Source of the DNA: Candidatus Multivoradales bacterium
Lineage (GTDB): Bacteria > Acidobacteriota > Thermoanaerobaculia > Multivoradales > JAHEKO01
Length of the DNA stretch: 64,000 nt
NCBI GenBank assembly: GCA_965223155.1
Contig: CBDCVR010000013.1
Coordinates: 992,001-1,056,000 of the forward strand
Direction of reading: 5' to 3'
Below the pieces are notes generated by a model. The model made no database searches. It worked only from the letters and a program-made list of their open reading frames with translations, and was not told the origin of the DNA. Of the stretch, positions 604 through 12,744 are shown piece by piece; position 1 is the first letter of the stretch, and every line of letters starts with the position of its first letter. The translations under genes and the position numbers were made by a program.

Positions 604-2331
604 ATGGCTCCGCCTTCCTCGAGCGGCTCGACTCCGGCCGGCGCGACCGGCCCCACCGGCGCGAGCGGCAGGATCGACGGCGGGCCGGGATCGGCCCACG
701 CCTTCCCGCAGCAGCGACCGGCCGTGGCCCGCTGGCTGGACCGGGCGCTGCAGCCGCTCGACGCGATCTGCAACCGGGTCTACACCTCTGCCTGGAACCC
801 CCTGTACAAGAGCGGCGCCCTGGCGGTGACCTTTCTGTTCCTGACCGTTCTCACCGGGATCTATCTCTTCATCCTCTATCGAGTTGCCGACCCCTACGGT
901 TCGGTCGCTCGCCTCGACGCAACCTGGCCGGGCTCCTTCATGCGTTCGGTCCACCGCTACAGCGCCGACTTGGCAATCGTTGCGGTTGGGTTGCACGCCC
1001 TCAAGATGCTGGCGACAGGCCGCACCTGGGGGCCCCGGGCCCTGGCATGGAGTACCGGCCTCCTGCTCCTAGGTGCGCTTTTCCTGTGCGGATGGACCGG
1101 CCTGGTCATGGCCTGGGACGTCCAGGGCCAGTTGATCGCCGTCGAAGGCGCGAGACTGATCGACCTCCTTCCGGTCTTCTCCGAACCGATCAGCCGGTCG
1201 TTCACTCATGCGGACTCGGTCGGACGGGCGTTCTTCTTCATGAATCTGTTTCTGCACGTGGCCCTGCCCCTGGGGCTCGCCGGCCTCTACTGGCTCCATT
1301 CTTCGCGGGTCGCCCGAGCGCCGACCCTGCCCACCCGCAAGCTCCACTACTACGCGATCGCCGCGGTCTCGCTTCTGGCCCTGGCGGTGCCGGTGCCGCT
1401 GCCGCCGCCGGCCGATCTCCTGGCGCTTCCGACCGCGGTCCCTCTGGACCTCTTCTACGCCTTCTGGCTGCCGCTGGCGCGCAACGTCTCGGCACCGATG
1501 CACCTGCTGCTCTGGCTGGCGGTTGCCGCCGTCGCCTTCTCGGTTCCTTGGTGGTGGCGTCCGTCCCGACGCGATTTTCCGCGGTCAACCGTGGACGAGA
1601 GCCACTGCGCCGGCTGCACCCAGTGCTATCTAGACTGCCCGTACGAGGCGATCAACATGGTCGAGCGCAGCGTGCCCTCGGATCTGTCGGTCTACGTCGC
1701 CCAGGTCGATCCGGCCCTGTGCGTGGGATGCGGCATCTGCTCGGGATCCTGCGCGCCGATGGGCGTCGGGCCGGTCGGGCGCACGGGGCGTGAGCAGCTC
1801 CGCGACGCCGAGGCCTGGCTGGAGACGCAGCGGGCGCAGAGTCCGCTTCCCGAGCGCCTGGTCGTGATCGGCTGCGGCTACGGACCGGGTGGGGCGCTGA
1901 GCGACCTCACGGACGATGACGGCATCGACGACGACGTGCTGTTCTTTCCGAGCGGCTGCGCCGGCTCGGTTCACACCTCGGTCATCGAACTGATTCTGCG
2001 CTGGGGCGCCGGCGGGGTCCTCCTCGTCACCTGTCCCGACCGGGACTGCCGCTACCGCGAAGGCCCCAAGTGGCTGAGCGAGCGCGTCTACGACGACCGC
2101 GAAGCCGAGCTCAAGAACCGCGTCGACAAACGGCGGGTTCGGATCGTGAGCTACGCCGCCAGCGAGGCGGGCGCGGCGCGGCGGGCGATCGCTGAGTTTC
2201 AGGTCGACTTGGCCTCCCTGGGGTCGGTCGTTCCCGAACGGAATCCGTCGGTGCAAGCCGAGTGCAAGACCACCGACGCCTACGCCCTCCTGGAGGAAGC
2301 GGAAAAGGCCCAGAAGGAGGTCCACGCCTGA
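604..2331 (+). CDS. Cytochrome b/b6-like membrane domain + 2x[4Fe-4S] ferredoxin + MvhD/FlpD-like [2Fe-2S] domain fusion
   Basis: Two His pairs 14 residues apart (SVHRYSADLAIVAVGLH; FLHVALPLGLAGLYWLH); CAGCTQCYLDCP and CVGCGICSGSC; C-terminal IGC..CAGSVH..GVLLVTCPDRDCRYREG. Start moved from 223 to ATG 604, which has TACAAT 6 nt upstream. Confidence 0.85.
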   Translation: MAPPSSSGSTPAGATGPTGASGRIDGGPGSAHAFPQQRPAVARWLDRALQPLDAICNRVYTSAWNPLYKSGALAVTFLFLTVLTGIYLFILYRVADPYGSVARLDATWPGSFMRSVHRYSADLAIVAVGLHALKMLATGRTWGPRALAWSTGLLLLGALFLCGWTGLVMAWDVQGQLIAVEGARLIDLLPVFSEPISRSFTHADSVGRAFFFMNLFLHVALPLGLAGLYWLHSSRVARAPTLPTRKLHYYAIAAVSLLALAVPVPLPPPADLLALPTAVPLDLFYAFWLPLARNVSAPMHLLLWLAVAAVAFSVPWWWRPSRRDFPRSTVDESHCAGCTQCYLDCPYEAINMVERSVPSDLSVYVAQVDPALCVGCGICSGSCAPMGVGPVGRTGREQLRDAEAWLETQRAQSPLPERLVVIGCGYGPGGALSDLTDDDGIDDDVLFFPSGCAGSVHTSVIELILRWGAGGVLLVTCPDRDCRYREGPKWLSERVYDDREAELKNRVDKRRVRIVSYAASEAGAARRAIAEFQVDLASLGSVVPERNPSVQAECKTTDAYALLEEAEKAQKEVHA

Positions 2332-2867
2332 TGGCGGACGCGTCCCCTTCGGCCGGACGCCGGCTGCTGTGGCACTTGATCGCCGCGGCCTGGACCGCGG
2401 TGCTGCTGGCCGCCGTCGTCGTCCTGGGACAGATCCCGATGGGGAAGCCGAGTGGCGAAGCCGTGCTGCGTCTCGCCCTGCGCACGGTCCAGGCCAAGAT
2501 CGAGGTTTGCCGCCAGCTCTCCGCCGAGGAGATCGCCGCTCTGCCCCAGCACATGCGCCGCGAGGAGACCTGCGAGCAAGTCTCGCCGCCCTACCGCCTG
2601 CTCGTCGCCATCGACGGCGAGACCGTGATCGACGAGCGCTTCGAAGCCGGCGGCATGCGCCGTGACCGTCCGCTCATCGTGGACCGCCAGATTCGCTGGC
2701 GTCCGGGACCGGCGGCGGCCGACATCACCTTCCGACCCGAGCTCGAATCCGCCGAGGCAGCGGAACTGCCGAGCTACCGGCTCGCCCGCAGCCTCGAGCT
2801 GACCGCGGACCGGATCACGCTCGTCACCCTGGACGAGGCCAACCGCTCGTTTACGGTTCTCGACTAG
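2331..2867 (+). CDS. Membrane-anchored hypothetical protein, coupled to the cytochrome b fusion
   Basis: TGATG stop/start overlap at 2329-2333; N-terminal TM helix; two Cys flanking LPQHMRR. Confidence 0.75.
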   Translation: MADASPSAGRRLLWHLIAAAWTAVLLAAVVVLGQIPMGKPSGEAVLRLALRTVQAKIEVCRQLSAEEIAALPQHMRREETCEQVSPPYRLLVAIDGETVIDERFEAGGMRRDRPLIVDRQIRWRPGPAAADITFRPELESAEAAELPSYRLARSLELTADRITLVTLDEANRSFTVLD

Positions 2868-2870
2868 AGC

Positions 2871-3815
2871 TTAGCCCGCGGCTTCGGCCTCGGCACGGTC
2901 GAGGCGTTCGACCGCTTCGACCACCCAGGAGATCGGCGGGCCGTTGAACGTGTAGCCGATCGTCCCATCGGACGCGAGAACATGCACCAGGGCCGGGTGC
3001 GCGACGTCTCCGGTTTGCGGATCCCGCTCATGCGGCATCTCCCAGGCGTCGAGCACCGCCACCACGTCGTCCACCTCGCCCGAGAGCACATGGCTGCGCT
3101 CCACGTCCGCGAGCTGCCATGCTTGGTGAAGGCTCGGCAGCGAGCTGGGCGTGTCCCGCCAGGGATCCAGGGTGAGGACGACTACGGCGGGCGCTCCGGC
3201 TCCTCCAGGCCGAGTGCCTGCAGACGAGCCTTCTGTCATCTCGAGCGCCGCCTGCCGCACCGTGTTGACCACGACCGGACACACGGTCCGGCAGTGCGCG
3301 AACGCAAACGTGACCAGAGCCGGCCGACCCTCGAGGTCTTGGAGCGAGACCCGGCGGCCGGCCTGGTCGACCAGATCGAAATCAGGCGCCGGTTTGTGGA
3401 GACGCGGATAGGTTTCTGGAAGATGTTCCGGCAGCCCGGAGTCGAGGCGCACGACCTCGAGCCGGGACGCGGCCCAGACTCGATGGCCGACCCAGCCGAC
3501 GCCAAGCGCCACCAGGATCGCCACCGCCACCAAGCCACCGCGCCCGACCGGGCCTCGCCACATCCGGGCCAACCCCTGCCGCAACTGCTGGCCCCAGACC
3601 CCGAGGAGGAACCCCAGCATCGCCAGGGGACTGGCGATGAGGGTCGCCCATCCCCAGGGCTCGGGCAGGCCGTTGGGCTGCGTGCCGAAGCACACGTTCC
3701 GGGCCTCGGCCAGCCAGTCGGGCGGCACCGGCAACGGGGCGAACGCGAGCGCCCACCACATCGCCGTGATCGCCAGCCAGGCCAGAAAGGCACCGACCGC
3801 GAACCTTGAAGTCAT
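2871..3815 (-). CDS. SCO/SenC family copper chaperone with N-terminal membrane domain
   Basis: PAPDFDLVDQAG, FAFAHCRTVCP (CxxxC), TLDPWRDTP and a distal His (VAHPALV); lies downstream of a CuA subunit gene. Confidence 0.9.
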   Translation of the reverse strand: MTSRFAVGAFLAWLAITAMWWALAFAPLPVPPDWLAEARNVCFGTQPNGLPEPWGWATLIASPLAMLGFLLGVWGQQLRQGLARMWRGPVGRGGLVAVAILVALGVGWVGHRVWAASRLEVVRLDSGLPEHLPETYPRLHKPAPDFDLVDQAGRRVSLQDLEGRPALVTFAFAHCRTVCPVVVNTVRQAALEMTEGSSAGTRPGGAGAPAVVVLTLDPWRDTPSSLPSLHQAWQLADVERSHVLSGEVDDVVAVLDAWEMPHERDPQTGDVAHPALVHVLASDGTIGYTFNGPPISWVVEAVERLDRAEAEAAG

Positions 3816-3837
3816 GCTTCCGAGACTCCGACCTCCG

Positions 3838-5556
3838 TCAGCCGATCTTCCAGATCATGGAAAGAAGCTTCCAGTTGGTGAAGTAGTAGAGCATGAAGAC
3901 GCCCAGGAAGACGAGAACCAACACTACCGTGCCGGGTGTGCCCTGCTTATGCACGGCTTCGGCCTCCTCGCCATCGTTGACCTGCGGCGGCAGCTTGACG
4001 ACGCCTTGCGGCACGCCGGCCATGCCCGGCGTCAGCGCTTCGAAGTCGACCTTCTGTCCGAAGAACACCGAGACCACCGCGATCGCGACGAACGCGAGAG
4101 CGGCCAGAGCCGCTAGCACGCCTCCCAGGCCGACACCGGCCAGCAGCAGGTCCACGGCGGGTGGGAACTCGTGCTGGAACGGAGCATTCGCAAACGAGAT
4201 GTCCCAATGCCTCCGGGGAGTCCCGAAGATGCCGGCGAATGTCATGCTCATCGCCATCACCGTGATCCCGACACCGAAGAGATACGGCTGGATCTTGGCG
4301 AGGCGCCAGAAGGCCACCTTGCGCCGGAAGATGAGCGGGATGACGTAGTAGGTCAGCGCCATGAACGCCAGCGCCGTTCCGCCCACGACCGTAACGTGGA
4401 AGTGGCCCGGGATGCGCATGGTGTTGTGCGCGATGATGTTGATCTGCTCGGTACCGATGGTGACGCCGGTGATTCCGCCCAGAAACCCGAAGATCACCAG
4501 GGACAGGAACATGCCGCTGAACCCGGGATCGCTCCACGGAGCCTTCTTCAGCCACTCGAAGCGGCCCTTGACGAAGCCCCGAAGGCGCTGGCCGACCTCG
4601 ATACCGGCCGGCACCGTAAAACCGTGGATCATGCTGGCCAAGACCGCAAGGTACATAGCGTAGCTGGTGTTCCAGACCTTCCAGGCCGGGCCCATGCCGG
4701 GATCGACCAGCAGGTGGTGCGCGGAAGCCATCGAGATGAACCCGACGTAGAGTACAAATGCCCAGCGGCTCACCTTCTCGTTGAGCACCACGGCGCCAAC
4801 CGTCAGGCCGCCCAACAGGTACCAGACGGCGACCATGGCCGCGACGTTGATCTGTTGCGACGAGTGTCCCAGGCCCCACCAAATCAATCGGTAGACCTGA
4901 GGATCCATGTCCATCATGCCCAGAGACCAGAAGTAGGTCGGGATGTAGACGATCGCTCCGTGCAGCAGCGTGATGACCGCGATGATGGCGGCGGTCAGGC
5001 CGCCGAAGGTCACGAGCGGCATCGAACCTTCATAGGTTTGCTCGCGCTTGGCGACCACCAGGGTGGCGAAGAACAAGCCGACCACGATCAGGGCGCCCAC
5101 GGCGAACAGGATGATGCCTAGGTAGTAGAGCGGATCGGCCCGGAGCGGCACGTACGAGGTGAAGAGCACGTCGGCCTTGCCCATGAAGACCATGGCGTTG
5201 ACCATGACCATGCCGACGACCATCAAAACGAAGCCCGCCCAGCCCAGCTTCGGAGCCGGCTGGCGCGCGTTGAGCGCGATCGGTCCGGCGAAGTACAGAA
5301 TCGCCATCTCGAAGAAGATGATGAAAAAAATCAGCATGTTGAGGCCGTGCGCGGTCAGCAGCCGGTAGTACCAGTCGGCCGGCAGCAGATGAACCGCCTG
5401 CCAGCGCGTGAGCGCCAGCAGCATCGCCGCGACCGCTCCGACCAGGAGCGAGACGATGGCGACCACGGCGTTGATCTTGAGCAGATTCTCGGCGTCACGA
5501 TTGACGTTGAGCCCGGTCACCGGGCAGCGGCGAAAGATCGCGTCGGCAAAGCTCAT
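3838..5556 (-). CDS. Heme-copper oxidase superfamily subunit I, B-family-derived, probable eNOR-type nitric oxide reductase
   Basis: Six metal-ligand His (LTAHG; GLGHSSQQ; SAHHL; PGHFH) and many TM helices; the H+4 cross-link Tyr position is Gln. Confidence 0.85.
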   Translation of the reverse strand: MSFADAIFRRCPVTGLNVNRDAENLLKINAVVAIVSLLVGAVAAMLLALTRWQAVHLLPADWYYRLLTAHGLNMLIFFIIFFEMAILYFAGPIALNARQPAPKLGWAGFVLMVVGMVMVNAMVFMGKADVLFTSYVPLRADPLYYLGIILFAVGALIVVGLFFATLVVAKREQTYEGSMPLVTFGGLTAAIIAVITLLHGAIVYIPTYFWSLGMMDMDPQVYRLIWWGLGHSSQQINVAAMVAVWYLLGGLTVGAVVLNEKVSRWAFVLYVGFISMASAHHLLVDPGMGPAWKVWNTSYAMYLAVLASMIHGFTVPAGIEVGQRLRGFVKGRFEWLKKAPWSDPGFSGMFLSLVIFGFLGGITGVTIGTEQINIIAHNTMRIPGHFHVTVVGGTALAFMALTYYVIPLIFRRKVAFWRLAKIQPYLFGVGITVMAMSMTFAGIFGTPRRHWDISFANAPFQHEFPPAVDLLLAGVGLGGVLAALAALAFVAIAVVSVFFGQKVDFEALTPGMAGVPQGVVKLPPQVNDGEEAEAVHKQGTPGTVVLVLVFLGVFMLYYFTNWKLLSMIWKIG

Positions 5557-6161
5557 GAGGATTCTCCTTGGCGATTGGCCTCGCGATTCGTCGCCGCCGG
5601 GCGGGCCGCGGTCGCGGATCCGGCGGGCTCGATCACGATCTTGCCCAGCATCAGATGGTGGTTGATGCCGCAGAACTCGTTGCAGATGACCTTGTAGTCA
5701 CCGGGCTGGTTGGGCGTGATCTTGAGCCCGTAGTCGTATCCGGGGACGATCTGAAAATTGACGTTGGCCGGATAGAGACTGAAGCCGTGGTTGACGTCGA
5801 GCGATGAGATATGAAGCGTGTAGTCGGCGCCTTCTTCCAGTACCAGGACCGGGGACCACTTCCACATCGTGCCCTGGAGATAGATGTCGCTTCCGGCCGG
5901 CGGCTTGACGACGGGAATTCCGCTTTCCTCGCCGACCTGGTAGTCGTTGATGAAGCGCTGGACCCGTTCCGCGAACGCCTTGGGCTCGACCTTCGAGCGA
6001 ATGCCGGACGGGTTCTGCCCGCCCTTGATGTGCCAGAAGGGCATCGCCGCGAACAGAACCATGCACCAGATAAAGGCGACGACGATCCAGAACCTTTCTT
6101 GCTTGCCGGCAGGCTTCCACCAGACTCCCTTGGGCGGGACGACCGCGGTATGGAGACTCAT
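5553..6161 (-). CDS. Heme-copper oxidase subunit II with CuA centre
   Basis: SSLDVNHGF and CNEFCGINHHLM CuA motif; one TM helix; ATGA overlaps with both neighbours; start set at MSLHTAV (6161). Confidence 0.92.
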   Translation of the reverse strand: MSLHTAVVPPKGVWWKPAGKQERFWIVVAFIWCMVLFAAMPFWHIKGGQNPSGIRSKVEPKAFAERVQRFINDYQVGEESGIPVVKPPAGSDIYLQGTMWKWSPVLVLEEGADYTLHISSLDVNHGFSLYPANVNFQIVPGYDYGLKITPNQPGDYKVICNEFCGINHHLMLGKIVIEPAGSATAARPAATNREANRQGESS

Positions 6162-6301
6162 GGCAGGGGCGCCTCGGGCAGGTTCGCGACCTCCCACAGA
6201 CCCCAGCCGGTGTAGAACAGAAACATCACTACCAAGCCGAGAAGCAGCAGCAGGAACGGCCGGTCGAATAGTCGCTGGCCGAGCGGAGCTTCTTCCTTCA
6301 T
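6158..6301 (-). CDS. 47-aa single-TM small subunit (subunit IIa-like), first gene of the oxidase operon
   Basis: Below the ORF-track cutoff. MKEEAPLGQRLFDRPFLLLLLGLVVMFLFYTGWGLWEVANLPEAPLP; GGAGG RBS; its TGA overlaps the subunit II ATG. Confidence 0.8.
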   Translation of the reverse strand: MKEEAPLGQRLFDRPFLLLLLGLVVMFLFYTGWGLWEVANLPEAPLP

Positions 6302-6456
6302 GAAACCTCCTTCCGGGTTCGCATCACGGCGCCGGGTCCGCGCTCACCGCGCCGCCCGCGCCCGGGCTTTGTTCTGGCGCCTCAATATGCCCGAAACCGC
6401 AACCGAGCGAACCATCCGTTGGGGTGGGGCTCCGTTTTGGCCTAGATCGCCCGGAC

Positions 6457-7050
6457 CTAGATCGCCCCGCCCCGCCAATCCTCGATCACCTCGGCCTTGA
6501 GCGCCCACTCACTACCGGGGAAGCGGCGCCGGAGGTCGTTCCAGGCGTCGGCCAGCGCCTGGATGTCGCGGCGGCCGGCCAGGAAGCGGGCGACCCCCAG
6601 CCAGCACGCAGCCTCGGGAGCCGCCGGAGCCTCGGCATGATCCGCCACCACCGAGCCCAGAAGCCCTTGGGCGTCCTCGGCCGCGCGGCGGGTGATGGCG
6701 TAGATGCCCCGGGCGGTCCGAAGCTCGGCCACGAAATCCGCCGGCGGCAGCCAGCCCACCGACCGGCGGCGCGCTCGACCCTTGCCGTCGAGGTACACGA
6801 ACGTGGGCGCCCACGGTACCGGAGCCCCGCCGCTCGCCTCGACGAAGTCCGGGTGGCGCTCGGTCAGGTTCGCCTTGAAACAGGCGAAACCCTCCTCCAG
6901 CTCCGCCTCGACCTCCGGATGTGGATACGTCACGGTATCCATGCGCCGGCACCCGAGTCAGCCAGGCGCCCAGAGATAGGCGAGAACAAGGGCGTCATCG
7001 GCCGCGGCCGCCTGCGCGGCCTCGAGGTACTCGTGCCAGTCAACCGGCAT
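6457..7050 (-). CDS. Thioredoxin-fold selenoprotein (UxxC) with C-terminal TPR-like helices
   Basis: Reading through the in-frame TGA at 6958-6960 gives MPVDWHEYLEAAQAAAADDALVLAYLWAPG-U-LGCRRMDTVTYP...WAPTFVYLDG, with Sec in the first CxxC position; a hairpin follows the TGA. Confidence 0.85.
6915..6949 (-). promoter_or_regulatory. Bacterial SECIS-like hairpin
   Basis: mRNA CCGG-CGCA-UGGAUAC-[CGUGAC]-GUAUCCA-CAU-CCGG; 7-bp perfect upper stem; apical loop begins 23 nt after UGA with G at loop position 2. Confidence 0.75.
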
Positions 7051-7158
7051 TCCACTATTGTACCGAGGCTCTTGGACACCAGGCCCACCCAACTACCGCT
7101 CACTGGAGAGGCGACGGGTGCCCAACGGCACCCGTCGCACTCCAATTGGCCTTCTGTC

Positions 7159-8178
7159 CTAGCTTCCGATCAGGTCGATCGCCGTCTGCGCCGTCGCTAT
7201 CAAGGTGTCGGCATCCGCTTCCGCGATCGCGCCTCCGCGTTGCGCCTGGACCGCGTTGATAAACGCCTCGAGACTTCCGATAGCGGCCACATCGTTGTGG
7301 GTATTCAGATCTTCGAGCGCCTTCAGGGCCGCATCGAGCTTCGCATCGAGGCTGTTGGCGATCCCCTGGCTGAGGTTCAGACCAATGATATCGGCGACGA
7401 GCTGAGCAACCAGGTCGGACGCAGTGCCACATGCCGGGATTCCGGCGACACCGCGATCGTAGAGATCGGTGACTTCGGAGGCGGTCAGTGCCGTGTCGTA
7501 GACGACAATCTCGTCCAAGTGGCCGCTGTAGTACGACGAGCAACTGTCCCATCCAAGCTGGACCATCTGGAGCTCGTCGTTGATGAGTCCACCGTAGATC
7601 GGCACCACCGAATCCACCAGAACACCATCGACGTAGAAGTCGACCGAATCCGTGGTGTAGGTTGCAGCCACGTGCTTCCACTCACCAAACGGAAACGGCG
7701 CGAACGAGCTAGAGACTTCATCTTCGGTGACCGGTGGATCCGCCCACTTGCTGAAGTAGAGCTCCTCAGAGAACAGGTGTGCGTACAACTGAAAGTTCCC
7801 CGCGTTGCAGTACGTTCTTGCCGTGATGACGGCGCCCAGCCCGTCCCCCACAGGGCCGGCCGGCCCACGATAGACCCACGCCGCAATGGACATCTGGTCG
7901 CCTCCGAAGTCCGTCAACGCGGCGTGAGCTCCCACGTCGACGTACGATCCGTCACCGCCCAGGCCCATGGCTTGGCCCACGGGACCCGAGCCATACGACA
8001 CCGAGCCGATGGGCGTGCCGGCAATGCCGTTCACCATCTCGGTGGTGTCACCATCGAGCGGCCAATAGCCCACGACGTTGGCGTCGCACTGATTCGCAAT
8101 CGCCAATTGCGGTGTCATCAAGAGCACGGCCGCCACACCCGATGCAACAAGTCCTCTCACTGCCAGTCCTCGATTCAT
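7159..8178 (-). CDS. Secreted LamG (concanavalin A-like) domain protein with C-terminal FIMAH-like helical domain
   Basis: Signal peptide; VGYWPLDG..SIAAWV..WKHVAATY..YVDG..GHLDEIVVYDTALTASEV; C-terminal SLDAKLDAA..LEAFINAVQAQRG. Start reassigned to 8178 (GAGGAG RBS). Confidence 0.8.
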   Translation of the reverse strand: MNRGLAVRGLVASGVAAVLLMTPQLAIANQCDANVVGYWPLDGDTTEMVNGIAGTPIGSVSYGSGPVGQAMGLGGDGSYVDVGAHAALTDFGGDQMSIAAWVYRGPAGPVGDGLGAVITARTYCNAGNFQLYAHLFSEELYFSKWADPPVTEDEVSSSFAPFPFGEWKHVAATYTTDSVDFYVDGVLVDSVVPIYGGLINDELQMVQLGWDSCSSYYSGHLDEIVVYDTALTASEVTDLYDRGVAGIPACGTASDLVAQLVADIIGLNLSQGIANSLDAKLDAALKALEDLNTHNDVAAIGSLEAFINAVQAQRGGAIAEADADTLIATAQTAIDLIGS

Positions 8179-8357
8179 TTCTAGCTCCTCTCTCGTTTCA
8201 ATCCCATCGCCTCTCTTGCTCAAGGCGCCTAGCTTCGTCAGTGAGACGGACGCTGGCTTTCGATTTCGCGACCCGACGCTGTACCAACTGCAAGCGATGC
8301 CATTCCGAGGCTGTAGGCACGGCCACCACCCACGCTCGACTCCGATAGGCTCGAAGC

Positions 8358-9140
8358 GTGCTCGGCATCGTGGAGGAGAAGGCTGAGATCGCCTACGAGA
8401 TCCGGCGCTCGCGCCGGGCAAAGCGCGTTCGGCTAACGGTTCGGCCGGAGGGGGTGCGGGTCTCGGCGCCGCCATGGACGCGGGCGGCGACGATCCGGAG
8501 GTTCGTGGAGTCGAAGCGGCCCTGGATCGAGCGCCGGTCGCGGGAGCTGGCCGAGGAGGCGCGGCGATGGGCTTTGCCGGAGTCGCTCTCGCCGGGCGTT
8601 CTCGTTCCGCTTCGCGGAGACCGGGTCGAGCTCCACGTGCTCGACGCTCAGGCTCCGGTTGCCGCTTCGGCCTTCGCCTCGGGACTGACCTCAGCATCGG
8701 GGCGCCGGTCGAAGAGGGCTTCGGTTGAGCTCGCGGGCCGGCCCGCGGACCGAATCAAGGTGCTGGTGCCGGGAACCCAGGCCAAGTCCGAGCGCCAGAC
8801 CGAGATCCGGCGAGCGCTCGTCGACTGGCTGAAGCTCCAGGCGCTTGCCGACGCCGAGCGCTGGGTCGGCGTGTACGCTCCCCGCCTCGATGTCCGTCCC
8901 ACCAAGATCCGGATCGGCAACCAGAAGACCTTGTGGGGGAGCTGCTCGGCGCGCGGGACGATCTCGCTCAACTGGCGCCTGGTGACTCTGCCGGAGGCCT
9001 TGTTCGAATACGTGGTCGTCCACGAGCTCTGTCACCTAGTCGAGCGCAATCACGGACTGCAGTTCTGGAGCCTCGTGGGCTCGCTCCTGCCTGACTACGG
9101 CGATCGGCGCGCCGCGCTACGGCGGCGGACGATTCTCTAG
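8358..9140 (+). CDS. M48 family / YgjP-like zinc metallopeptidase (DUF45)
   Basis: RRSRRAKR N-terminus; QKTLWGSCS..ISLNWRL..YVVVHELCHL..NHG..FW. Confidence 0.9.
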   Translation: MLGIVEEKAEIAYEIRRSRRAKRVRLTVRPEGVRVSAPPWTRAATIRRFVESKRPWIERRSRELAEEARRWALPESLSPGVLVPLRGDRVELHVLDAQAPVAASAFASGLTSASGRRSKRASVELAGRPADRIKVLVPGTQAKSERQTEIRRALVDWLKLQALADAERWVGVYAPRLDVRPTKIRIGNQKTLWGSCSARGTISLNWRLVTLPEALFEYVVVHELCHLVERNHGLQFWSLVGSLLPDYGDRRAALRRRTIL

Positions 9141-9210
9141 AGCCCGCGACAGCTAGAGAGAGGCTACCGGCCCGGCAACCACGGCTACACGATCCCGGGC
9201 GGCCGCCCGA

Positions 9211-10119
9211 TCAGCTTCGCTCGTGCCGCAGAAAGGTGCCGTCTTCGAGCTCGGCGTAGGCCTGACGCAGCTCGCCGGGAGAGTTCATGACGATCGGCCC
9301 GTGCCAGGCCACCGGCTCGCGCAGGGGCTGGCCCGAGACCAGCAGGAAGCGCATTCCCTCGTCGCCCGCCTCGACCACGATCTCGTCGCCGCGGTCGAAG
9401 AGAACCAGCGAGCGGTCGCCGGCCGGAGTCAAGCTCATCGCCCCCGAGGCCAGATCTTCGGTGGGCACGCCGCGCGGGTCGGACGCGCCGGCGAACCGGC
9501 CCGACCCGGCAAAGACGTAAGCAAAAGCGTGGTCGGCGGTCTCGACCGCCAGGCGCTTGCGCCGGTTGGGCGGAACCGAGACGTCCAGGTACCGGGGATC
9601 GGCGGCTATGCCCTCGACCGGTCCGCGGGCGCCCCAGAACTCGCCACAGACGACCCGCACCCGGGTGCCGTCGTCGTCGGTCACCTCAGGAACGTCGCCG
9701 CTCGCGATGTCCTGGTAGCGCGGCGCAGTCATCTTCTTCGACGCCGGCAGATTGGCCCAAAGCTGGAAACCGTGCATGCGGCCGGCCGGGTCCCCGGCCG
9801 GCATCTCCTGATGGACGATGCCGCTGCCGGCGGTCATCCACTGCACGTCGCCGGCGCCGACGACGCCGGAGTTGCCCAGGCTGTCGGCGTGCTCGACACT
9901 ACCGGCCAGAACGTAGGTGATGGTCTCGATGCCGCGGTGCGGGTGCCAGGGGAACCCCGCCCGGTAGTCCTCCGAGCGCTCGTTGCGGAAGTCGTCCAGC
10001 AGCAGAAACGGGTCGAAGTCCTTGGTCTTGCCAAAGCCGAAGGCGCGGTCGAGGCGAACGCCGGCGCCTTCGATCGTGGGTTGGGCTTGACTGACGGAAC
10101 GGGCAGGCCGGATGGACAT
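9211..10119 (-). CDS. Pirin family protein
   Basis: EGAGV, DPFLLLDDF, GFPWHPHRGIETITY, VQWMTAGSGIVHQEMP, GPIVMN; AGGAGG RBS before ATG 10119. Confidence 0.95.
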   Translation of the reverse strand: MSIRPARSVSQAQPTIEGAGVRLDRAFGFGKTKDFDPFLLLDDFRNERSEDYRAGFPWHPHRGIETITYVLAGSVEHADSLGNSGVVGAGDVQWMTAGSGIVHQEMPAGDPAGRMHGFQLWANLPASKKMTAPRYQDIASGDVPEVTDDDGTRVRVVCGEFWGARGPVEGIAADPRYLDVSVPPNRRKRLAVETADHAFAYVFAGSGRFAGASDPRGVPTEDLASGAMSLTPAGDRSLVLFDRGDEIVVEAGDEGMRFLLVSGQPLREPVAWHGPIVMNSPGELRQAYAELEDGTFLRHERS

Positions 10120-10262
10120 CAGGCACCTCCTGGAACGGTCGCTGTCGAGAAAAAGCACTACGCGGATGCGCACCCCGAACAACGGATTCGGAGCGTTTGA
10201 AATTCCCTCCCGCGATGTCTCCGGGACTCGCCCCGGCGGTCGCTTGCAGGTACCCTCGGCCG

Positions 10263-11615
10263 ATGCTCGCGACCCGGCCTTCGACCGAGACCGGCCGGCT
10301 TCTGCGCCTGGCCGGCCCGATGATCGTCGGGCAACTCGCCGGGGTGCTCATGACCTTCGTCGACACGGTCATGGCCGGAAGACTCTCGGCCGAAGCTCTG
10401 GCGGCGGTGGCCGCGGGCAGCGCCATCTGGCACACCCTGATGCTCGCGGGCATGGGTATCCTGCTCGCGGTCTCGCCTTCGGTGGCGCAGCTCGACGGCG
10501 CCGGCCGGCAGAGCGAGATCGGCCCCCTGGTCCGGCAGGCCGCCTGGATTGCCCTCGCCCTGGCGGCGGTCACCGTCGCCGCATGCCTGGGCGCCGGCCC
10601 GCTTCTCCACGCACTCGACATCGAACCGGGGCTCCACGAGACGATCCTGGGATACCTCAAGGCCCTCCTCTGGGGTGCCCTGCCGATGTATCTCTTCCTG
10701 GCGCTTCGTTTCCTGTGCGAGGGCGTCGAGATCAGCCGGCCGGTGATGTATTTCGGCTTCGTCGGGCTGGCGGTCAACGTGGTCGCCAACTACGGCCTCA
10801 TCTACGGCCACTGGGGCCTGCCGCGACTGGGCGCCGTGGGCTGCGGCTACGCCACCTCGGCGGTCTGGTGGACCGAGCTGGCCGGGCTCGTGGCCTACGT
10901 CCGGCTCCATCCGAAGCTGCGCCGGCTCCACGTCTTCGGCCGCTTTGACCGTCCGCGGGTCGAGCCCCTGCTCGAGCTCCTGCGCCTGGGTGGACCGATC
11001 GGGTTCAGCTTCTTCGTGGAGGTCAGCATGTTCGCGGGGGTGGCGCTGCTCATGGGCTCGATCAGCGCCGTGGCGGTGGCCGGACACCAGATCGCGATCA
11101 ACGTCGCCTCGACCACGTTCATGGTGCCCTTGGGGATCTCGCTGGCGACCACGGTCCGGGTGGGTAACGCCCTGGGCCGCGGCGATCGCGGCGGCGCCCG
11201 GCGCGCCGGATGGCTGGGCATCCGGGTCGCGCTCGCCGCGCAAGTGCTGTCTTCGATCCTGCTGGTGGTCTTCCCGCGCGCCATCGCCGGCATCTACAGC
11301 CGGGATCCGGCGGTAGTCGCGGTCGCGGTCCAGCTGCTGCTGGCGGCGGCGATCTTCCAGCTCTCGGACGGACTCCAGGTTTCGGCGGCGGGCGCCCTGC
11401 GCGGCGCCAAGGACACCCGGGCCCCGATGCTCGTCACGGTCGTCGCGTACTGGGCGGTCGGCCTGCCCTTCGGCTACTGGCTGTGCTTTCGCCAGGGGCT
11501 GGGGGCGATCGGCCTCTGGATCGGCATCATCGGCGGCCTCACGGTCGCCGGCCTCTTGCTCACGGCCCGGTTCCGTCAGCTTCTGAGCGGGCCGGCGCCC
11601 GCGGGCGCCGGCTAG
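10263..11615 (+). CDS. norM: MATE family efflux transporter
   Basis: LRLAGP..FVDTVMAGRLS..LAAVA; PRLGAVGCGYAT; FQLSDGLQV..GALRGAKDT; about 12 TM. Confidence 0.9.
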   Translation: MLATRPSTETGRLLRLAGPMIVGQLAGVLMTFVDTVMAGRLSAEALAAVAAGSAIWHTLMLAGMGILLAVSPSVAQLDGAGRQSEIGPLVRQAAWIALALAAVTVAACLGAGPLLHALDIEPGLHETILGYLKALLWGALPMYLFLALRFLCEGVEISRPVMYFGFVGLAVNVVANYGLIYGHWGLPRLGAVGCGYATSAVWWTELAGLVAYVRLHPKLRRLHVFGRFDRPRVEPLLELLRLGGPIGFSFFVEVSMFAGVALLMGSISAVAVAGHQIAINVASTTFMVPLGISLATTVRVGNALGRGDRGGARRAGWLGIRVALAAQVLSSILLVVFPRAIAGIYSRDPAVVAVAVQLLLAAAIFQLSDGLQVSAAGALRGAKDTRAPMLVTVVAYWAVGLPFGYWLCFRQGLGAIGLWIGIIGGLTVAGLLLTARFRQLLSGPAPAGAG

Positions 11616-11630
11616 GGCTGAAGACGACAG

Positions 11631-11659
11631 CGGGCCGCCGCCGACAAGGCGGCGACCCG
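11631..11659. terminator. GC-rich hairpin between convergent genes, possible bidirectional terminator
   Basis: CGGG(C)CGCCGCC-GACAA-GGCGGCG(A)CCCG; no clear U-tract. Confidence 0.4.
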
Positions 11660-11681
11660 TGTCCGTTGATCGCGGAGGCCT

Positions 11682-12443
11682 CTAGCGGCCGGCGTCGGCC
11701 GCTTCCGCCATCGCCTCGCGGGCGGCGACGTCGTCCGACGACATGTCCACGGTCACCATGAAGCCGGTTGTACCGCTGAACTCGAAGGCCTTGTCTCCGA
11801 CCTTCCAGGTCTCGATCTCGTTCGGCATCATCTTGAACCCGTCGTTACGGGCGGCACCGAAGTACGCGATGTTGTTGAGAAAGCCGGGACCGCCGTCCAT
11901 GCCCGCCCACTTGTTGAGAGCGATGTGGGCCTTCTCGCCGCCGTCCAGCTTGGCCTCGGCCCGGTCCTCGGTAGCCATCCACTCGATGTCGCCATCCGCG
12001 GCAACCTCGAAGGACTTCCACTGCACCGGAAAGATGTGGCCCAGAGCCGTGGCGACACCCGCTTTCTGCGCGTCGGTCGTACCCTCTTGGAAGGTCACGA
12101 TCGCCCACTCGGTCTCGCCGTCCTCCCAGTTGTCACCCAGGTCCCCGGCGACCCAAAACCTGACTCCGGCCAGATCGGTGTCGCCATGGTGACCTTCGTT
12201 GACCTTGTAGGCCATGTTGAACTTGCAGAAGTGCTCGGGGTCGTGGGCCACATGGGAGGCGGGCTCGAAATTGAAGTAGCACTGGCAGAACATCGGACAG
12301 CTACAGGCCTCGATCACGGTTCCGTTGAAGTGCCAATCCTCGCCGTCGCCGGCCCAGACCATGGGCGCCGCCAGGATCGCGACAGCCGCCACGAGCGCAG
12401 CGCCAAGAAACCACGTTCTCTTTCGATTCATACTTCCCTCCAT
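11682..12443 (-). CDS. DUF1326 family protein, exported
   Basis: W...G..IEACSCPMFCQC..C..EGHHGDTDLAG pattern; signal peptide. Confidence 0.75.
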   Translation of the reverse strand: MEGSMNRKRTWFLGAALVAAVAILAAPMVWAGDGEDWHFNGTVIEACSCPMFCQCYFNFEPASHVAHDPEHFCKFNMAYKVNEGHHGDTDLAGVRFWVAGDLGDNWEDGETEWAIVTFQEGTTDAQKAGVATALGHIFPVQWKSFEVAADGDIEWMATEDRAEAKLDGGEKAHIALNKWAGMDGGPGFLNNIAYFGAARNDGFKMMPNEIETWKVGDKAFEFSGTTGFMVTVDMSSDDVAAREAMAEAADAGR

Positions 12444-12744
12444 GGATGGTCCAGGCGAGTTGTGACTCGCCCGGTGTTGCCGCCGGCGAAGCCGCTCCGC
12501 CGGCGCCTTACGAATGATCTACTGAACCTATCTCCAGCAATCGAAATCGTCAATCCCGCTCTGCCCGGCCTGGAAGGCCTCGCCGCCTTGCCAGATCGCA
12601 CCAAATAGTGCAACATTCGTTAACTCGTTAACGCGTGGCGGGAGTGACGCACGTTGGCGCTGGGCTCGGACGTTTGACCGGCCTAGGGGTAGAGGGCGGG
12701 GTGTCTCTACAGGCGAAACGGCCGGACCGGCAGGAGGGACAGCC

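What the first reader, a model, noticed from the sequence alone, without database searches (positions are those of the whole stretch)
604..2867. Cytochrome b-ferredoxin-MvhD fusion plus partner next to the NOR-like operon: candidate electron-supply module
Seen: all four b-heme His, two [4Fe-4S] motifs and an MvhD/FlpD-type Cys set in one chain, coupled to a membrane-anchored two-Cys protein. There is no Rieske, cytochrome c1, hydrogenase or Hdr gene nearby, and the unit ends 3 nt from the SCO gene. Established: MvhD normally links HdrA to hydrogenase, and cytochrome b normally works with a Rieske protein. Inference: a bc1-independent quinol/cytoplasmic redox link, or a maturation reductase, dedicated to the CuA enzyme.
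Basis: partly seen in the sequence, partly recalled or inferred. Interest (0 to 1): 0.7.

Follow-up and report, generated by a model that had tools for sequence, protein, structure and literature searches.

The report
Cytochrome b–FeS module tied to eNOR
Two neighbouring genes encode an unstudied membrane electron-transfer unit (a cytochrome b fused to iron-sulfur domains, plus a small periplasmic partner) that in every genome examined travels with one particular type of nitric-oxide reductase, so it is probably a dedicated helper of that greenhouse-gas-forming enzyme.

Summary
Gene A (604-2331, +) is a bc-type cytochrome b with four invariant haem histidines. It is fused to two [4Fe-4S] motifs and an MvhD/FlpD domain. 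Gene B (2331-2867, +) overlaps it by one base and encodes a single-helix periplasmic beta-sandwich with no Pfam family. B has an invariant C-x13-HM-x5-C patch.

On the opposite strand, convergent and 3 nt away, lie SCO, an eNOR-type subunit I (GHSSQQ, Gln replacing the cross-link Tyr), a CuA subunit II and a 47-aa peptide.

The link to the NO reductase is strongly supported:
- 72 of the 80 closest loci carry clear eNOR-cluster genes beside A-B, in three gene orders.
- In samples of two phyla, 63 of 63 genomes with this subunit I also hold A, and no intact A-B pair was seen without it.
- A complex prediction supports A-B binding (0.73 against 0.00 for the controls).

The genome has no hydrogenase or HdrA match, and Rieske genes sit only beside other cytochrome b genes. 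The mechanism is unresolved. I favour a Rieske-less electron-input module for eNOR, with a maturation reductase as the main rival. I class it as a new variant of a known kind.

The parts
604..2331 (+). Gene A: cytochrome b - 2x[4Fe-4S] ferredoxin - MvhD/FlpD fusion, 575 aa
   Evidence: ORF and translation. Pfam and NCBIfam hits. The identical 575-aa protein is present in the protein collection.
721..1578 (+). Membrane domain of A (residues 40-325): an N-side amphipathic helix plus six transmembrane helices; haem ligands H117/H131 (helix B) and H218/H232 (helix D); conserved P-side cd and ef-like loops
   Evidence: Model secondary structure. Invariant columns. Foldseek match to bc1 cytochrome b. 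Segment conservation and loop charges.
1585..1779 (+). Ferredoxin domain of A (residues 328-392) with two CxxCxxCxxxC motifs
   Evidence: Pfam Fer4 families. All eight cysteines invariant in 50 sequences.
1858..2223 (+). MvhD/FlpD-like domain of A (residues 419-540) with C424, C452, C477 and C482
   Evidence: PF02662 at 45 bits, cut-off 22.3. Alignment to solved MvhD chains. Foldseek 5odc_D.
2331..2867 (+). Gene B: 178-aa partner with a transmembrane helix (residues 7-34) and a periplasmic beta-sandwich (44-177). Invariant C60 (2508-2510), H74, M75 and C81 (2571-2573)
   Evidence: TGATG overlap with A. No Pfam or NCBIfam hit. Alignment of 40 sequences. Model pLDDT 93.9. Next to A in 79 of 80 loci.
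2871..3815 (-). SCO1/SenC copper chaperone with a long N-terminal membrane extension
   Evidence: PF02630, E 1.4e-20. Present in 64 of 80 related loci.
3838..5556 (-). eNOR-type haem-copper subunit I (GHSSQQ)
   Evidence: PF00115. The closest solved structure is T. thermophilus ba3, with GHPIVY replaced by GHSSQQ. The Gln criterion comes from PMC8756737.
5553..6197 (-). CuA subunit II (start codon uncertain)
   Evidence: PF00116 and TIGR02866. The CxExCGxxHxxM motif is present in all 66 COX2 ORFs of the cluster, the window's own included.
6158..6301 (-). 47-aa single-helix peptide at the head of the eNOR operon
   Evidence: ORF. tblastn match in 68 of 80 loci, directly upstream of COX2.

Best explanation
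A and B form a two-subunit membrane redox module that is a dedicated companion of one clade (GH[S/A/P][S/A]QQ) of eNOR-type nitric-oxide reductase.

What the parts are:
- A is a bc-type cytochrome b with two b haems and a conserved P-side pocket of the quinol-oxidation (Qo) type.
- The cytoplasmic C-terminus of A carries two [4Fe-4S] clusters and one MvhD-type [2Fe-2S] cluster. This gives a continuous electron path across the membrane.
- B is anchored by one helix. Its periplasmic beta-sandwich sits on the P-side cd and ef-like loops of A. In bc complexes the Rieske head docks in that region; this comparison is recalled and was not tested by superposition.
- B turns a conserved C-x13-HM-x5-C patch away from A, toward a third partner.

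Most likely working (inferred): the module is a Rieske-less, bc1-independent electron-input device for the eNOR. Electrons taken from quinol at the P-side pocket, and/or arriving from the cytoplasmic Fe-S end through the two haems, are handed on the periplasmic side via B to CuA of subunit II.

Shown: the domain content, the ligand conservation, the strict co-occurrence with this eNOR, and model support for A-B binding.

Inferred: the direction of electron flow, the role of B, any contact with eNOR, and the identity of the cytoplasmic partner.
For: Architecture:
- Domains and ligands.
- Topology: positively charged N-side loops and an acidic cd loop.
- The four-helix core, the cd loop (0.72) and the ferredoxin domain (0.73) are among the most conserved segments.
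- W171, D172 and (in the 14-sequence alignment) Q174 are invariant and align with the PWDQ stretch of cytochrome b6.

Linkage in the 80 closest loci:
- B is beside A in 79 of 80, COX1 in 68, COX2 in 67 and SCO in 64.
- Gene orders: divergent 60, co-directional 9 (one of them, L062, only through a weak 29% SCO hit), convergent 4, none 7.
- Most of the 7 without a neighbour are short contigs or contig ends. The genomes of L004, L008, L022 and L062 each hold a 73-80% identical subunit I elsewhere (4 of 4).

Co-occurrence in genome samples:
- Own-phylum sample of 301 genomes: full-length A in 5. Subunit I at 59% identity or more is in the same 5, about 0.9-1.1 kb from A on the same contig.
- Gemmatimonadota sample of 251 genomes: close subunit I in 58. 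A and B are in all 58.
- Without the subunit I only remnants were found. G430 has a truncated A, B, SCO fragments and a frameshifted Rrf2. G452 has a B fragment.

Other support:
- A and COX1 distances correlate (r 0.85; 0 of 999 permutations reach it; 48 loci).
- Complex prediction of A(40-330) with B scored 0.73 (runs 0.75, 0.73, 0.73). The best of 3 controls scored 0.00. That mark was reached by 58 of 80 solved complexes and 2 of 110 mismatched pairs. The runs share at least 96% of contacts and the partner pLDDT is at least 80. The counts hold only roughly because my own alignments were used.
- The interface comprises B 18-41, 45-51, 113-118 and 160-166 against A 119-126, 193-202, 254-265 and 272-290.
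- No conserved cytochrome c gene lies in the cluster. The genome has a cd1 nitrite reductase, so NO is produced.
- A 2026 preprint independently noted a 'cytochrome b and [Fe-S]' gene in the Ferrigenium eNOR operon and found the protein in a proteome (section read).
Against: - B has no demonstrable redox cofactor. It has only two Cys, one His and one Met conserved, and no fold match above background. Its conserved patch is not in the predicted interface with A.
- The genome has two ordinary Rieske/cytochrome b pairs. These could feed CuA through cytochrome c, so an extra donor is not obviously needed.
- Other eNOR-type enzymes work without A-B (G494; R. marinus eNOR was assayed as an isolated enzyme, passages).
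- Moving electrons from haem b into [4Fe-4S] clusters against the membrane potential is energetically awkward. The reverse direction leaves the conserved quinol-type pocket unexplained.
- In this window A-B and the NOR genes are convergent.
- Co-occurrence fits an assembly factor equally well.
Confidence: 0.42

Rival explanations
1. Maturation or repair reductase. A carries electrons from a cytoplasmic donor through Fe-S clusters and two haems to the periplasmic side. There B uses its C60/C81 pair, or a bound metal, to keep SCO and the CuA cysteines reduced, or to reduce Cu(II) or Fe(III) for insertion into the eNOR. This would be a haem-based counterpart of the CcdA/DsbD-TlpA-Sco route, or of MsrQ serving MsrP.
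For: - The only other conserved accessory gene of the cluster is SCO.
- B is periplasmic, with two invariant cysteines that the model places in neighbouring strands (57-62 and 79-84), plus an invariant His-Met. Cys, His and Met are typical copper ligands (recalled).
- The conserved patch of B faces away from A, so it is free for a client protein.
- Strict co-occurrence is what an assembly factor shows.
- The one eNOR-type locus without A-B (G494) also lacks SCO nearby.
Against: - Five redox centres and a conserved quinol-type pocket are a heavy apparatus for a stoichiometric maturation step.
- The distant split paralogue (cytochrome b-Fer4 plus a separate FlpD) sits beside a cbb3-type oxidase and a Rieske/cytochrome b pair. 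That setting has no CuA subunit, no SCO and no B, which points to a respiratory role for the architecture.
- One-electron haem chemistry is not the usual way to reduce disulfides on the periplasmic side (recalled).
Confidence: 0.27
2. NarI/HdrE-like redox loop not wired to eNOR. A oxidises quinol at the P side and passes both electrons inward through haems and Fe-S clusters to an unidentified cytoplasmic acceptor that docks on the MvhD domain, for example an enzyme dealing with NO damage. Or it runs in reverse as a ferredoxin/NAD(P)H:quinone reductase. It is only co-inherited and co-regulated with eNOR, and B is a structural subunit.
For: - The cofactor chain runs from a P-side quinol-type pocket to cytoplasmic Fe-S clusters. 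This is the logic of NarGHI, HdrDE and DsrMK (recalled).
- MvhD domains are docking and electron-relay modules for a flavoprotein partner (passages).
- The Ferrigenium operon also holds a version fused to FAD and NADH-binding domains.
- In 45 of 80 loci an Fe-S-type Rrf2 regulator lies between A and the eNOR operon, which fits common stress regulation.
Against: - No candidate cytoplasmic partner is conserved in the neighbourhood.
- No HdrA match and no other FlpD domain exist in the genome.
- It does not explain why intact A-B was never seen without this eNOR, or why the locus decays when eNOR is gone.
- It gives no role to the conserved outward-facing patch of B.
Confidence: 0.18
3. No functional link: A-B merely hitch-hikes beside the eNOR genes on a mobile island.
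For: - The cluster is patchy. Genomes of the same genus (G131) and the same family (G119) lack both.
- The eNOR genes have lower G+C (0.62-0.66) than the flanks (0.68-0.70).
Against: - The linkage survives three different gene orders and several phyla.
- It holds at genome level when adjacency is broken.
- Only remnants of A-B remain where eNOR is missing.
Confidence: 0.03

Closest known systems
Cytochrome b of bc1/b6f complexes (Rieske/cytochrome b family)
   Same: Pfam PF00033 is above its cut-off. There are four haem histidines as two H-x13-H pairs, and a WD.Q stretch that aligns with the PWDQ of cytochrome b6. The best structural matches are bc1 cytochrome b chains over about 290-350 columns.
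   Different: No Rieske or cytochrome c1 partner lies in the cluster. PF00032 (the C-terminal domain) is not detected. Only two helices follow helix D. The C-terminus continues into cytoplasmic Fe-S domains where a Qi-site route would otherwise close the cycle. The cysteine that binds haem cn in b6 is not conserved.
MvhD of the Mvh-Hdr complex, and the ferredoxin-MvhD tail of HdrA2
   Same: Residues 328-542 match the C-terminal 572-774 of the HdrA2 model (E 2.4e-18). The FlpD domain is above its cut-off. Its cysteines align with solved MvhD, and Foldseek hits 5odc_D.
   Different: The domain is fused to a membrane cytochrome b. The genome shows no hydrogenase large subunit and no HdrA match, so the canonical partners are missing.
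NarGHI, HdrDE, DsrMK (membrane cytochrome b plus cytoplasmic Fe-S subunit)
   Same: The overall logic is shared: a quinol site, two b haems across the membrane, and an Fe-S chain in the cytoplasm (recalled knowledge compared).
   Different: The cytochrome b here is of the bc type, not NarI-like; no NarI-type family appears among the Pfam hits. No catalytic cytoplasmic subunit is encoded nearby. There is a periplasmic partner, B.
The 'cytochrome b + [Fe-S]' genes of the Ferrigenium straubiae eNOR operon (bioRxiv 10.64898/2026.01.22.701106)
   Same: A cytochrome b/Fe-S protein is encoded with eNOR II, eNOR I and sco1, and is detected in a proteome. The authors propose a supercomplex with eNOR (section 6.5.2 read).
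   Different: I could not obtain those sequences, so homology to A is untested. That operon also has a version with FAD and NADH domains. The preprint calls these genes unusual for eNOR operons and gives no survey. Its figures and supplementary tables were not visible to me.
Rieske iron-sulfur protein (as the counterpart of B)
   Same: It has one membrane helix plus a periplasmic beta domain. B is predicted to sit on the cd/ef loops of cytochrome b. The Rieske docking site is recalled, not superposed.
   Different: B has no CxH...CxxH cluster motifs, only C60, H74, M75 and C81 conserved. It has no Pfam family and no structural relative above background.

Membership tests
Cytochrome b (bc1/b6f type, PF00033) | Profile match above the curated cut-off | tested here: met
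   53.1 bits against a cut-off of 27.2, residues 62-232.
Cytochrome b (bc1/b6f type, PF00033) | Four bis-His haem ligands, two each on helices B and D | tested here: met
   H117/H131 and H218/H232 are invariant in 14 and in 50 sequences. They lie in model helices 108-137 and 208-237.
Cytochrome b (bc1/b6f type, PF00033) | Works with an adjacent Rieske iron-sulfur protein | tested here: not met
   There is no Rieske gene in the conserved neighbourhood. Of the genome's four PF00355 matches, two pair with the other two cytochrome b genes and none lies near A.
Cytochrome b (bc1/b6f type, PF00033) | C-terminal domain / subunit IV (PF00032) with the PEWY motif | tested here: not met
   PF00032 is not among the hits at E<=0.01. 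Only a PxDxFY-like stretch (P280-Y285, D282 at least 90% conserved) lies in the ef-like loop.
2x[4Fe-4S] ferredoxin domain | Two CxxCxxCxxxC motifs | tested here: met
   C335/338/341/345 and C373/376/379/383 are invariant. Several Fer4 families hit, with Fer4_6, Fer4_7 and Fer4 above their cut-offs.
MvhD/FlpD (PF02662) | Profile match above the cut-off, with the cluster cysteines conserved | tested here: met
   45.0 bits against 22.3. C452, C477 and C482 align with cysteines of solved MvhD chains. C424, C452 and C477 are invariant and C482 is at least 90% conserved. Which four residues bind the cluster is inferred.
MvhD/FlpD (PF02662) | Functional partners HdrA and a hydrogenase | tested here: not met
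   No PF00374 match and no NF041778 match at E<=1e-5 in the 98.66%-complete genome.
eNOR family of haem-copper oxidoreductases (for the neighbouring subunit I) | Gln in place of the cross-linked Tyr (criterion quoted in PMC8756737, section 2.7.1) | tested here: met
   GHSSQQ aligns with GHPIVY of ba3. 62 of 66 subunit I ORFs in the related loci carry GH[S/A/P][S/A]QQ; the other 4 gave no regex match and were not inspected.
eNOR family of haem-copper oxidoreductases (for the neighbouring subunit I) | CuA-binding subunit II | tested here: met
   CxExCGxxHxxM in 66 of 66 COX2 ORFs, the window's included.
eNOR family of haem-copper oxidoreductases (for the neighbouring subunit I) | NO reductase activity; placement with the curated eNOR HMM or tree of Murali et al. 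| not testable with these tools
No assay is possible.
Rieske iron-sulfur protein (considered for B) | CxH and CxxH boxes binding a [2Fe-2S] cluster | tested here: not met
   Only C60, H74, M75 and C81 are invariant among potential ligands. There is no PF00355 hit.
Known periplasmic copper chaperones or cupredoxins (considered for B) | Sequence family or fold match | tested here: inconclusive
   No Pfam or NCBIfam hit. Foldseek gave no match at E<=0.001. The best VIA-align Z was 8.5, to an unrelated luminal domain, which is at background level.

The most novel reading that the evidence does not exclude
A-B plus this eNOR form a Rieske-less, bc-like electron-bifurcating supercomplex. Quinol is oxidised at the P-side pocket of A. 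The very high potential of NO reduction pulls the first electron out through B (carrying a new Cys/His/Met copper or thiol centre) to CuA. The second, low-potential electron is driven through the two b haems into the [4Fe-4S]/[2Fe-2S] chain and reduces a low-potential cytoplasmic acceptor. NO respiration would then be coupled to making strong reductant instead of wasting the energy. The split paralogue beside a Rieske/cytochrome b pair and a cbb3 oxidase would do the same with O2.
Probability: 0.13. Interest if true: 0.9.

Novelty: new variant of a known kind. Interest (0 to 1): 0.66.

Why it matters
eNOR is reported as one of the commonest NO reductases in environmental data and a direct source of N2O (passages). 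How it receives electrons and how it is assembled is not known.

A conserved, clade-specific partner with two haems and three Fe-S clusters is an obvious candidate for either job, and it can be tested directly by knockout, co-purification and spectroscopy.

The module is also an unexplored way of using a bc-type cytochrome b without a Rieske protein, and an MvhD domain without Hdr or hydrogenase. Its partner B defines a family of about 1,300 sequence clusters with no annotation.

If the low-potential branch really delivers electrons to the cytoplasm, this would be a new form of energy coupling in denitrification.

Tried and rejected
- Selenocysteine reading. The in-frame TGA reported for G139 and G212 was read with TGA=U. 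It is simply the stop between a cytochrome b-Fer4 gene and a separate FlpD gene, so that reading is rejected.
- Rrf2 regulator as NsrR. It only reaches the Rrf2 superfamily model and stays far below the IscR and NsrR cut-offs, so I do not call it an NO sensor.
- Conserved ORF cluster 12 (156 aa, upstream of A). This is an antisense shadow of the Rrf2 gene.
- The 161-aa ORF at 6457-6942. It is not found in any of the 80 loci, so it is not part of the unit.
- Fold of B. Foldseek found nothing at E<=0.001. VIA-align wide gave a best Z of 8.5, at background level. The ESM Atlas showed only 'hypothetical protein' clusters.
- Fused forms. No longer relatives of A (1008-2875 aa) or of B (313-2000 aa) were found. 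The tool itself calls this weak evidence.
- Expression. No RNA holder was listed.
- Literature for the fusion. Searches gave two things: the Ferrigenium preprint, and a single table row in PMC8756737 listing a cytochrome c-cytochrome b6-DMSOR_beta-FlpD protein.
- What I saw of each paper. PMC11214002 and its 2021 preprint, PMC13592168, PMC8756737, 10.1101/2021.09.25.461819 and PMC10734462 were seen as passages only. For the Ferrigenium preprint I saw passages plus section 6.5.2 in full. Figures and supplements of all of these were not visible. The SI gene-neighbourhood figures and datasets of Murali et al. and Table S7 of the Ferrigenium preprint may already show these genes.
- A first regex for the subunit I motif was wrong and was corrected.
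- The distance correlation between A and COX1 partly reflects shared species phylogeny. I do not take it as proof of co-transfer.


Full report
LAYOUT. The finding spans two plus-strand genes.
- Gene A (604-2331) gives a 575-aa protein.
- Gene B starts at 2331, on the last base of A's TGA (TGATG), and ends at 2867.
- Upstream, on the minus strand, is the N-terminus of what reads like an RND efflux pump. That name is my reading of the translation only and was not scanned.
- Downstream, all on the minus strand, are SCO (2871-3815), a haem-copper subunit I (3838-5556), a CuA subunit II (5553-6197) and a 47-aa one-helix peptide (6158-6301).

So A-B is convergent with the NOR-like operon, separated by 3 nt, and is not part of its transcript here.

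- Pfam finds Cytochrome_B (residues 62-232), several Fer4 families (329-384) and FlpD (444-540). The first and last are above their curated cut-offs.
- NCBIfam adds that residues 328-542 resemble the ferredoxin-MvhD tail of HdrA2.
- In alignments of 14 and 50 relatives, the four haem histidines (H117, H131, H218, H232), all eight ferredoxin cysteines, and C424, C452 and C477 are invariant. C482 is nearly so, and a fifth cysteine, C554, is invariant.
- C452, C477 and C482 line up with cysteines of solved MvhD chains.
- The AlphaFold model (pLDDT 88.4, pTM 0.85) has an N-side amphipathic helix, six membrane helices, then the Fe-S and Rossmann-like domains.
- Foldseek returns bc1 cytochrome b chains first (E 7.6e-8; yeast 1ezv_C rmsd 4.4 over 294 columns) and MvhD 5odc_D (TM 0.71 on the target).
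- Loop charges fit an N-in topology, which puts the Fe-S domains in the cytoplasm.
- The W171-D172-x-Q174 stretch aligns with PWDQ of cytochrome b6. The cd loop is among the most conserved segments. A P-side quinol-type pocket is therefore likely retained. That last step is inference.

GENE B.
- It has no Pfam or NCBIfam family.
- Forty orthologues share an N-terminal helix and invariant C60, H74, M75, C81, G108 and G126.
- The model is confident (pLDDT 93.9): helix 7-34, then a beta-sandwich.
- Neither Foldseek nor VIA-align gives a relative above background.
- A profile search of 1.84 billion representatives finds 1,327 clusters at E<=0.001. The top 150 are all 161-263 aa, matched over most of their length.
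- C60 and C81 lie in neighbouring strands (57-62 and 79-84). They could form a disulfide at the base of the loop that carries H74 and M75.

DO A AND B BIND? Three lines point to a complex:
- the start/stop overlap;
- B next to A in 79 of 80 loci, the one miss (L071) ending at a contig edge;
- B present in all 58 Gemmatimonadota genomes that have A together with the subunit I.

The single complex job (A residues 40-330 plus B, both with alignments) gave 0.73 against a best control of 0.00. That mark was reached by 58 of 80 solved and 2 of 110 mismatched pairs. The runs agree in at least 96% of contacts and the partner pLDDT is at least 80. The counts hold only roughly because my own alignments were used.

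In that prediction B's helix packs against helices B and E of A. Its sandwich (residues 45-51, 113-118, 160-166) rests on A 193-202 and 272-290, the cd and ef-like loops. The conserved Cys/His/Met patch is not in this interface.

THE NEIGHBOURING ENZYME.
- The closest solved relative of subunit I is T. thermophilus ba3 (E about 1e-39).
- The three metal histidines and the haem histidines are kept, while GHPIVY becomes GHSSQQ.
- A Gln at the Tyr position is the criterion used to recognise eNOR in PMC8756737 (passage).
- 62 of 66 subunit I ORFs in the related loci carry GH[S/A/P][S/A]QQ.
- Subunit II has an intact CuA motif in 66 of 66.
- The genome also has three ordinary haem-copper oxidases, a cd1 nitrite reductase and no nirK match.

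The A family is large. 1,567 proteins scored E<=0.001 among the 8,000 candidates scored, and the best 120 listed nearly all carry cytochrome b, Fer4 and FlpD families. At least 586 species genomes encode a relative.

Among the 80 closest loci (Gemmatimonadota, Acidobacteriota, Binatia, Schekmanbacteria, Nitrospiraceae, Myxococcales and others):
- Subunit I is present in 68, subunit II in 67 and SCO in 64.
- The gene orders are divergent in 60, co-directional (COX2-COX1-SCO-A-B) in 9 and convergent in 4. One of the 9, L062, rests only on a weak SCO hit. Seven show nothing.
- Of those seven, L020, L031 and L032 are contigs of 2-4 kb. L015 starts at A with an Rrf2 fragment at its edge.
- For L004, L008, L022 and L062 I searched the whole genomes. 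All four hold a 73-80% identical subunit I elsewhere.

All-against-all clustering of ORFs from these loci found no other conserved neighbour apart from the 47-aa peptide (68 of 80 loci) and an Rrf2 regulator next to the eNOR operon (45 of 80, plus one elsewhere in its locus, L041; none in this window).

GENOME SAMPLES.
- Own phylum, 301 genomes. Full-length A (E<=1e-100) is in 5 genomes. Subunit I at 59% identity or more is in exactly those 5, about 0.9-1.1 kb away on the same contig. Genomes of the same genus and family lack both.
- Gemmatimonadota, 251 genomes. A at E<=1e-40 is in 59. Subunit I at 65% identity or more is in 58, all of them among the 59. B is in 61.
- The extras are remnants. 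G430 has a truncated A (residues 373-557), B, three SCO fragments and a frameshifted Rrf2, with no subunit I. G452 has a B fragment. G404 has a weak hit.
- Conversely, G494 has a 44-47% identical eNOR-type enzyme (GHGTQQ) with only the peptide and subunit II beside it. No SCO, A or B lies in the 18 kb fetched, and no A or B match was found in that genome.

So A-B belongs to one eNOR subclade and was not seen intact without it.

DISTANT RELATIVES. In G139, G212 and G232 a shorter cytochrome b-Fer4 protein is present. In G139 and G212 a separate FlpD gene follows it; none was found in G232. The protein lies downstream of a C-family oxidase (COX1 plus FixO/cytochrome c), a Rieske-like ORF and a full cytochrome b. 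The Rieske-like ORF is called from its motifs only, with no Pfam hit.

The architecture therefore turns up beside other terminal haem-copper enzymes and bc complexes. This argues for a respiratory role rather than a CuA-specific one.

MECHANISM. The shown parts are a transmembrane cofactor chain, a periplasmic partner, and obligate linkage to an enzyme that takes electrons at a periplasmic CuA site.

I commit to an electron-input module for eNOR that is independent of the Rieske/bc complexes (confidence 0.42). The direction of the Fe-S branch is left open.

The main rival is a maturation or repair reductase working with SCO (0.27). Next is a NarI/HdrE-like loop to an unknown cytoplasmic acceptor (0.18). 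Hitch-hiking is nearly excluded (0.03).

Against my choice:
- B has no proven cofactor.
- No A-B contact with eNOR was tested.
- The genome has two normal Rieske/cytochrome b pairs.
- Other eNORs manage without A-B.

PRIOR KNOWLEDGE. PGAP names the protein 'hydrogenase iron-sulfur subunit', which is misleading here. The genome has no hydrogenase large subunit match, no HdrA match, and its only FlpD domain is this one.

My searches found two mentions in print:
- a 2026 preprint on Ferrigenium straubiae, which notes two cytochrome b/Fe-S genes in its eNOR operon and proposes a supercomplex making NADH;
- one table row in PMC8756737, for a cytochrome c-cytochrome b6-FeS-FlpD protein.

No paper I could search describes the cross-phylum linkage, the partner B, or its predicted position.

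VERDICT. The link to the NO reductase is strongly supported by comparative genomics. The mechanism is open. I rate it a new variant of a known kind (a bc-type cytochrome b used without a Rieske protein and wired to cytoplasmic Fe-S clusters), with interest 0.66.

Noticed in passing
window 6158-6301 (-): A 47-aa single-helix peptide heads the eNOR operon and is conserved in 68 of 80 related loci. It may be a small eNOR subunit, comparable to subunit IIa of ba3 oxidase (that comparison is recalled).
   Followed up: partly
L009 9486-9902 (-), L012 9437-9877 (-) and 43 further loci: An Rrf2-family regulator with three clustered cysteines lies between the eNOR operon and A in 45 of 80 loci, mostly Gemmatimonadota. 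It reaches only the superfamily model, not the NsrR or IscR cut-offs. None is found in this 64-kb window.
   Followed up: partly
window 3430-3815 (-), N-terminal ~130 aa of SCO: The SCO protein has a long hydrophobic N-terminal extension, with several apparent membrane helices and a cysteine, before the SCO1/SenC domain (Pfam covers residues 144-285 only). Ordinary Sco proteins have one anchor helix (recalled).
   Followed up: no
L085 (G139) 1861-10102; also L086 (G212) and L088 (G232): A split paralogue: cytochrome b-2xFer4 (442 aa), with a separate FlpD gene (134 aa) in G139 and G212 but none found in G232. It lies downstream of a C-family oxidase, a FixO/cytochrome c, a Rieske-like ORF and a full-length cytochrome b. 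It has no B homologue and no SCO.
   Followed up: partly
L098 (G430) 9399-11469: A decayed locus: SCO in three fragments, A truncated to residues 373-557, an apparently intact B, and a frameshifted Rrf2. No subunit I or II is present. The module seems to erode once the eNOR is lost.
   Followed up: partly
window 3500-6500: G+C falls to 0.62-0.66 over the eNOR genes, against 0.68-0.70 in the flanks. Genomes of the same genus and family lack both A and this subunit I. This suggests acquisition by transfer, or loss in relatives.
   Followed up: partly
L087 (G134) 7169-12588: A 684-aa subunit I-like protein (35% identical to the window's) is followed by a 568-aa protein with an N-terminal extension plus cytochrome b N and C domains, and then a multihaem cytochrome c. 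This is another haem-copper enzyme with its own cytochrome b.
   Followed up: no
window 6457-6942 (-): A 161-aa ORF upstream of the eNOR operon has a faint match to the DsbD-like end of TsoB (E 0.0087). It is not found in any of the 80 related loci.
   Followed up: partly
window residue C554 of gene A (2263-2265): A fifth cysteine in the C-terminal tail, outside the FlpD match, is invariant in 50 sequences. The tail around it is otherwise poorly conserved (0.24).
   Followed up: no
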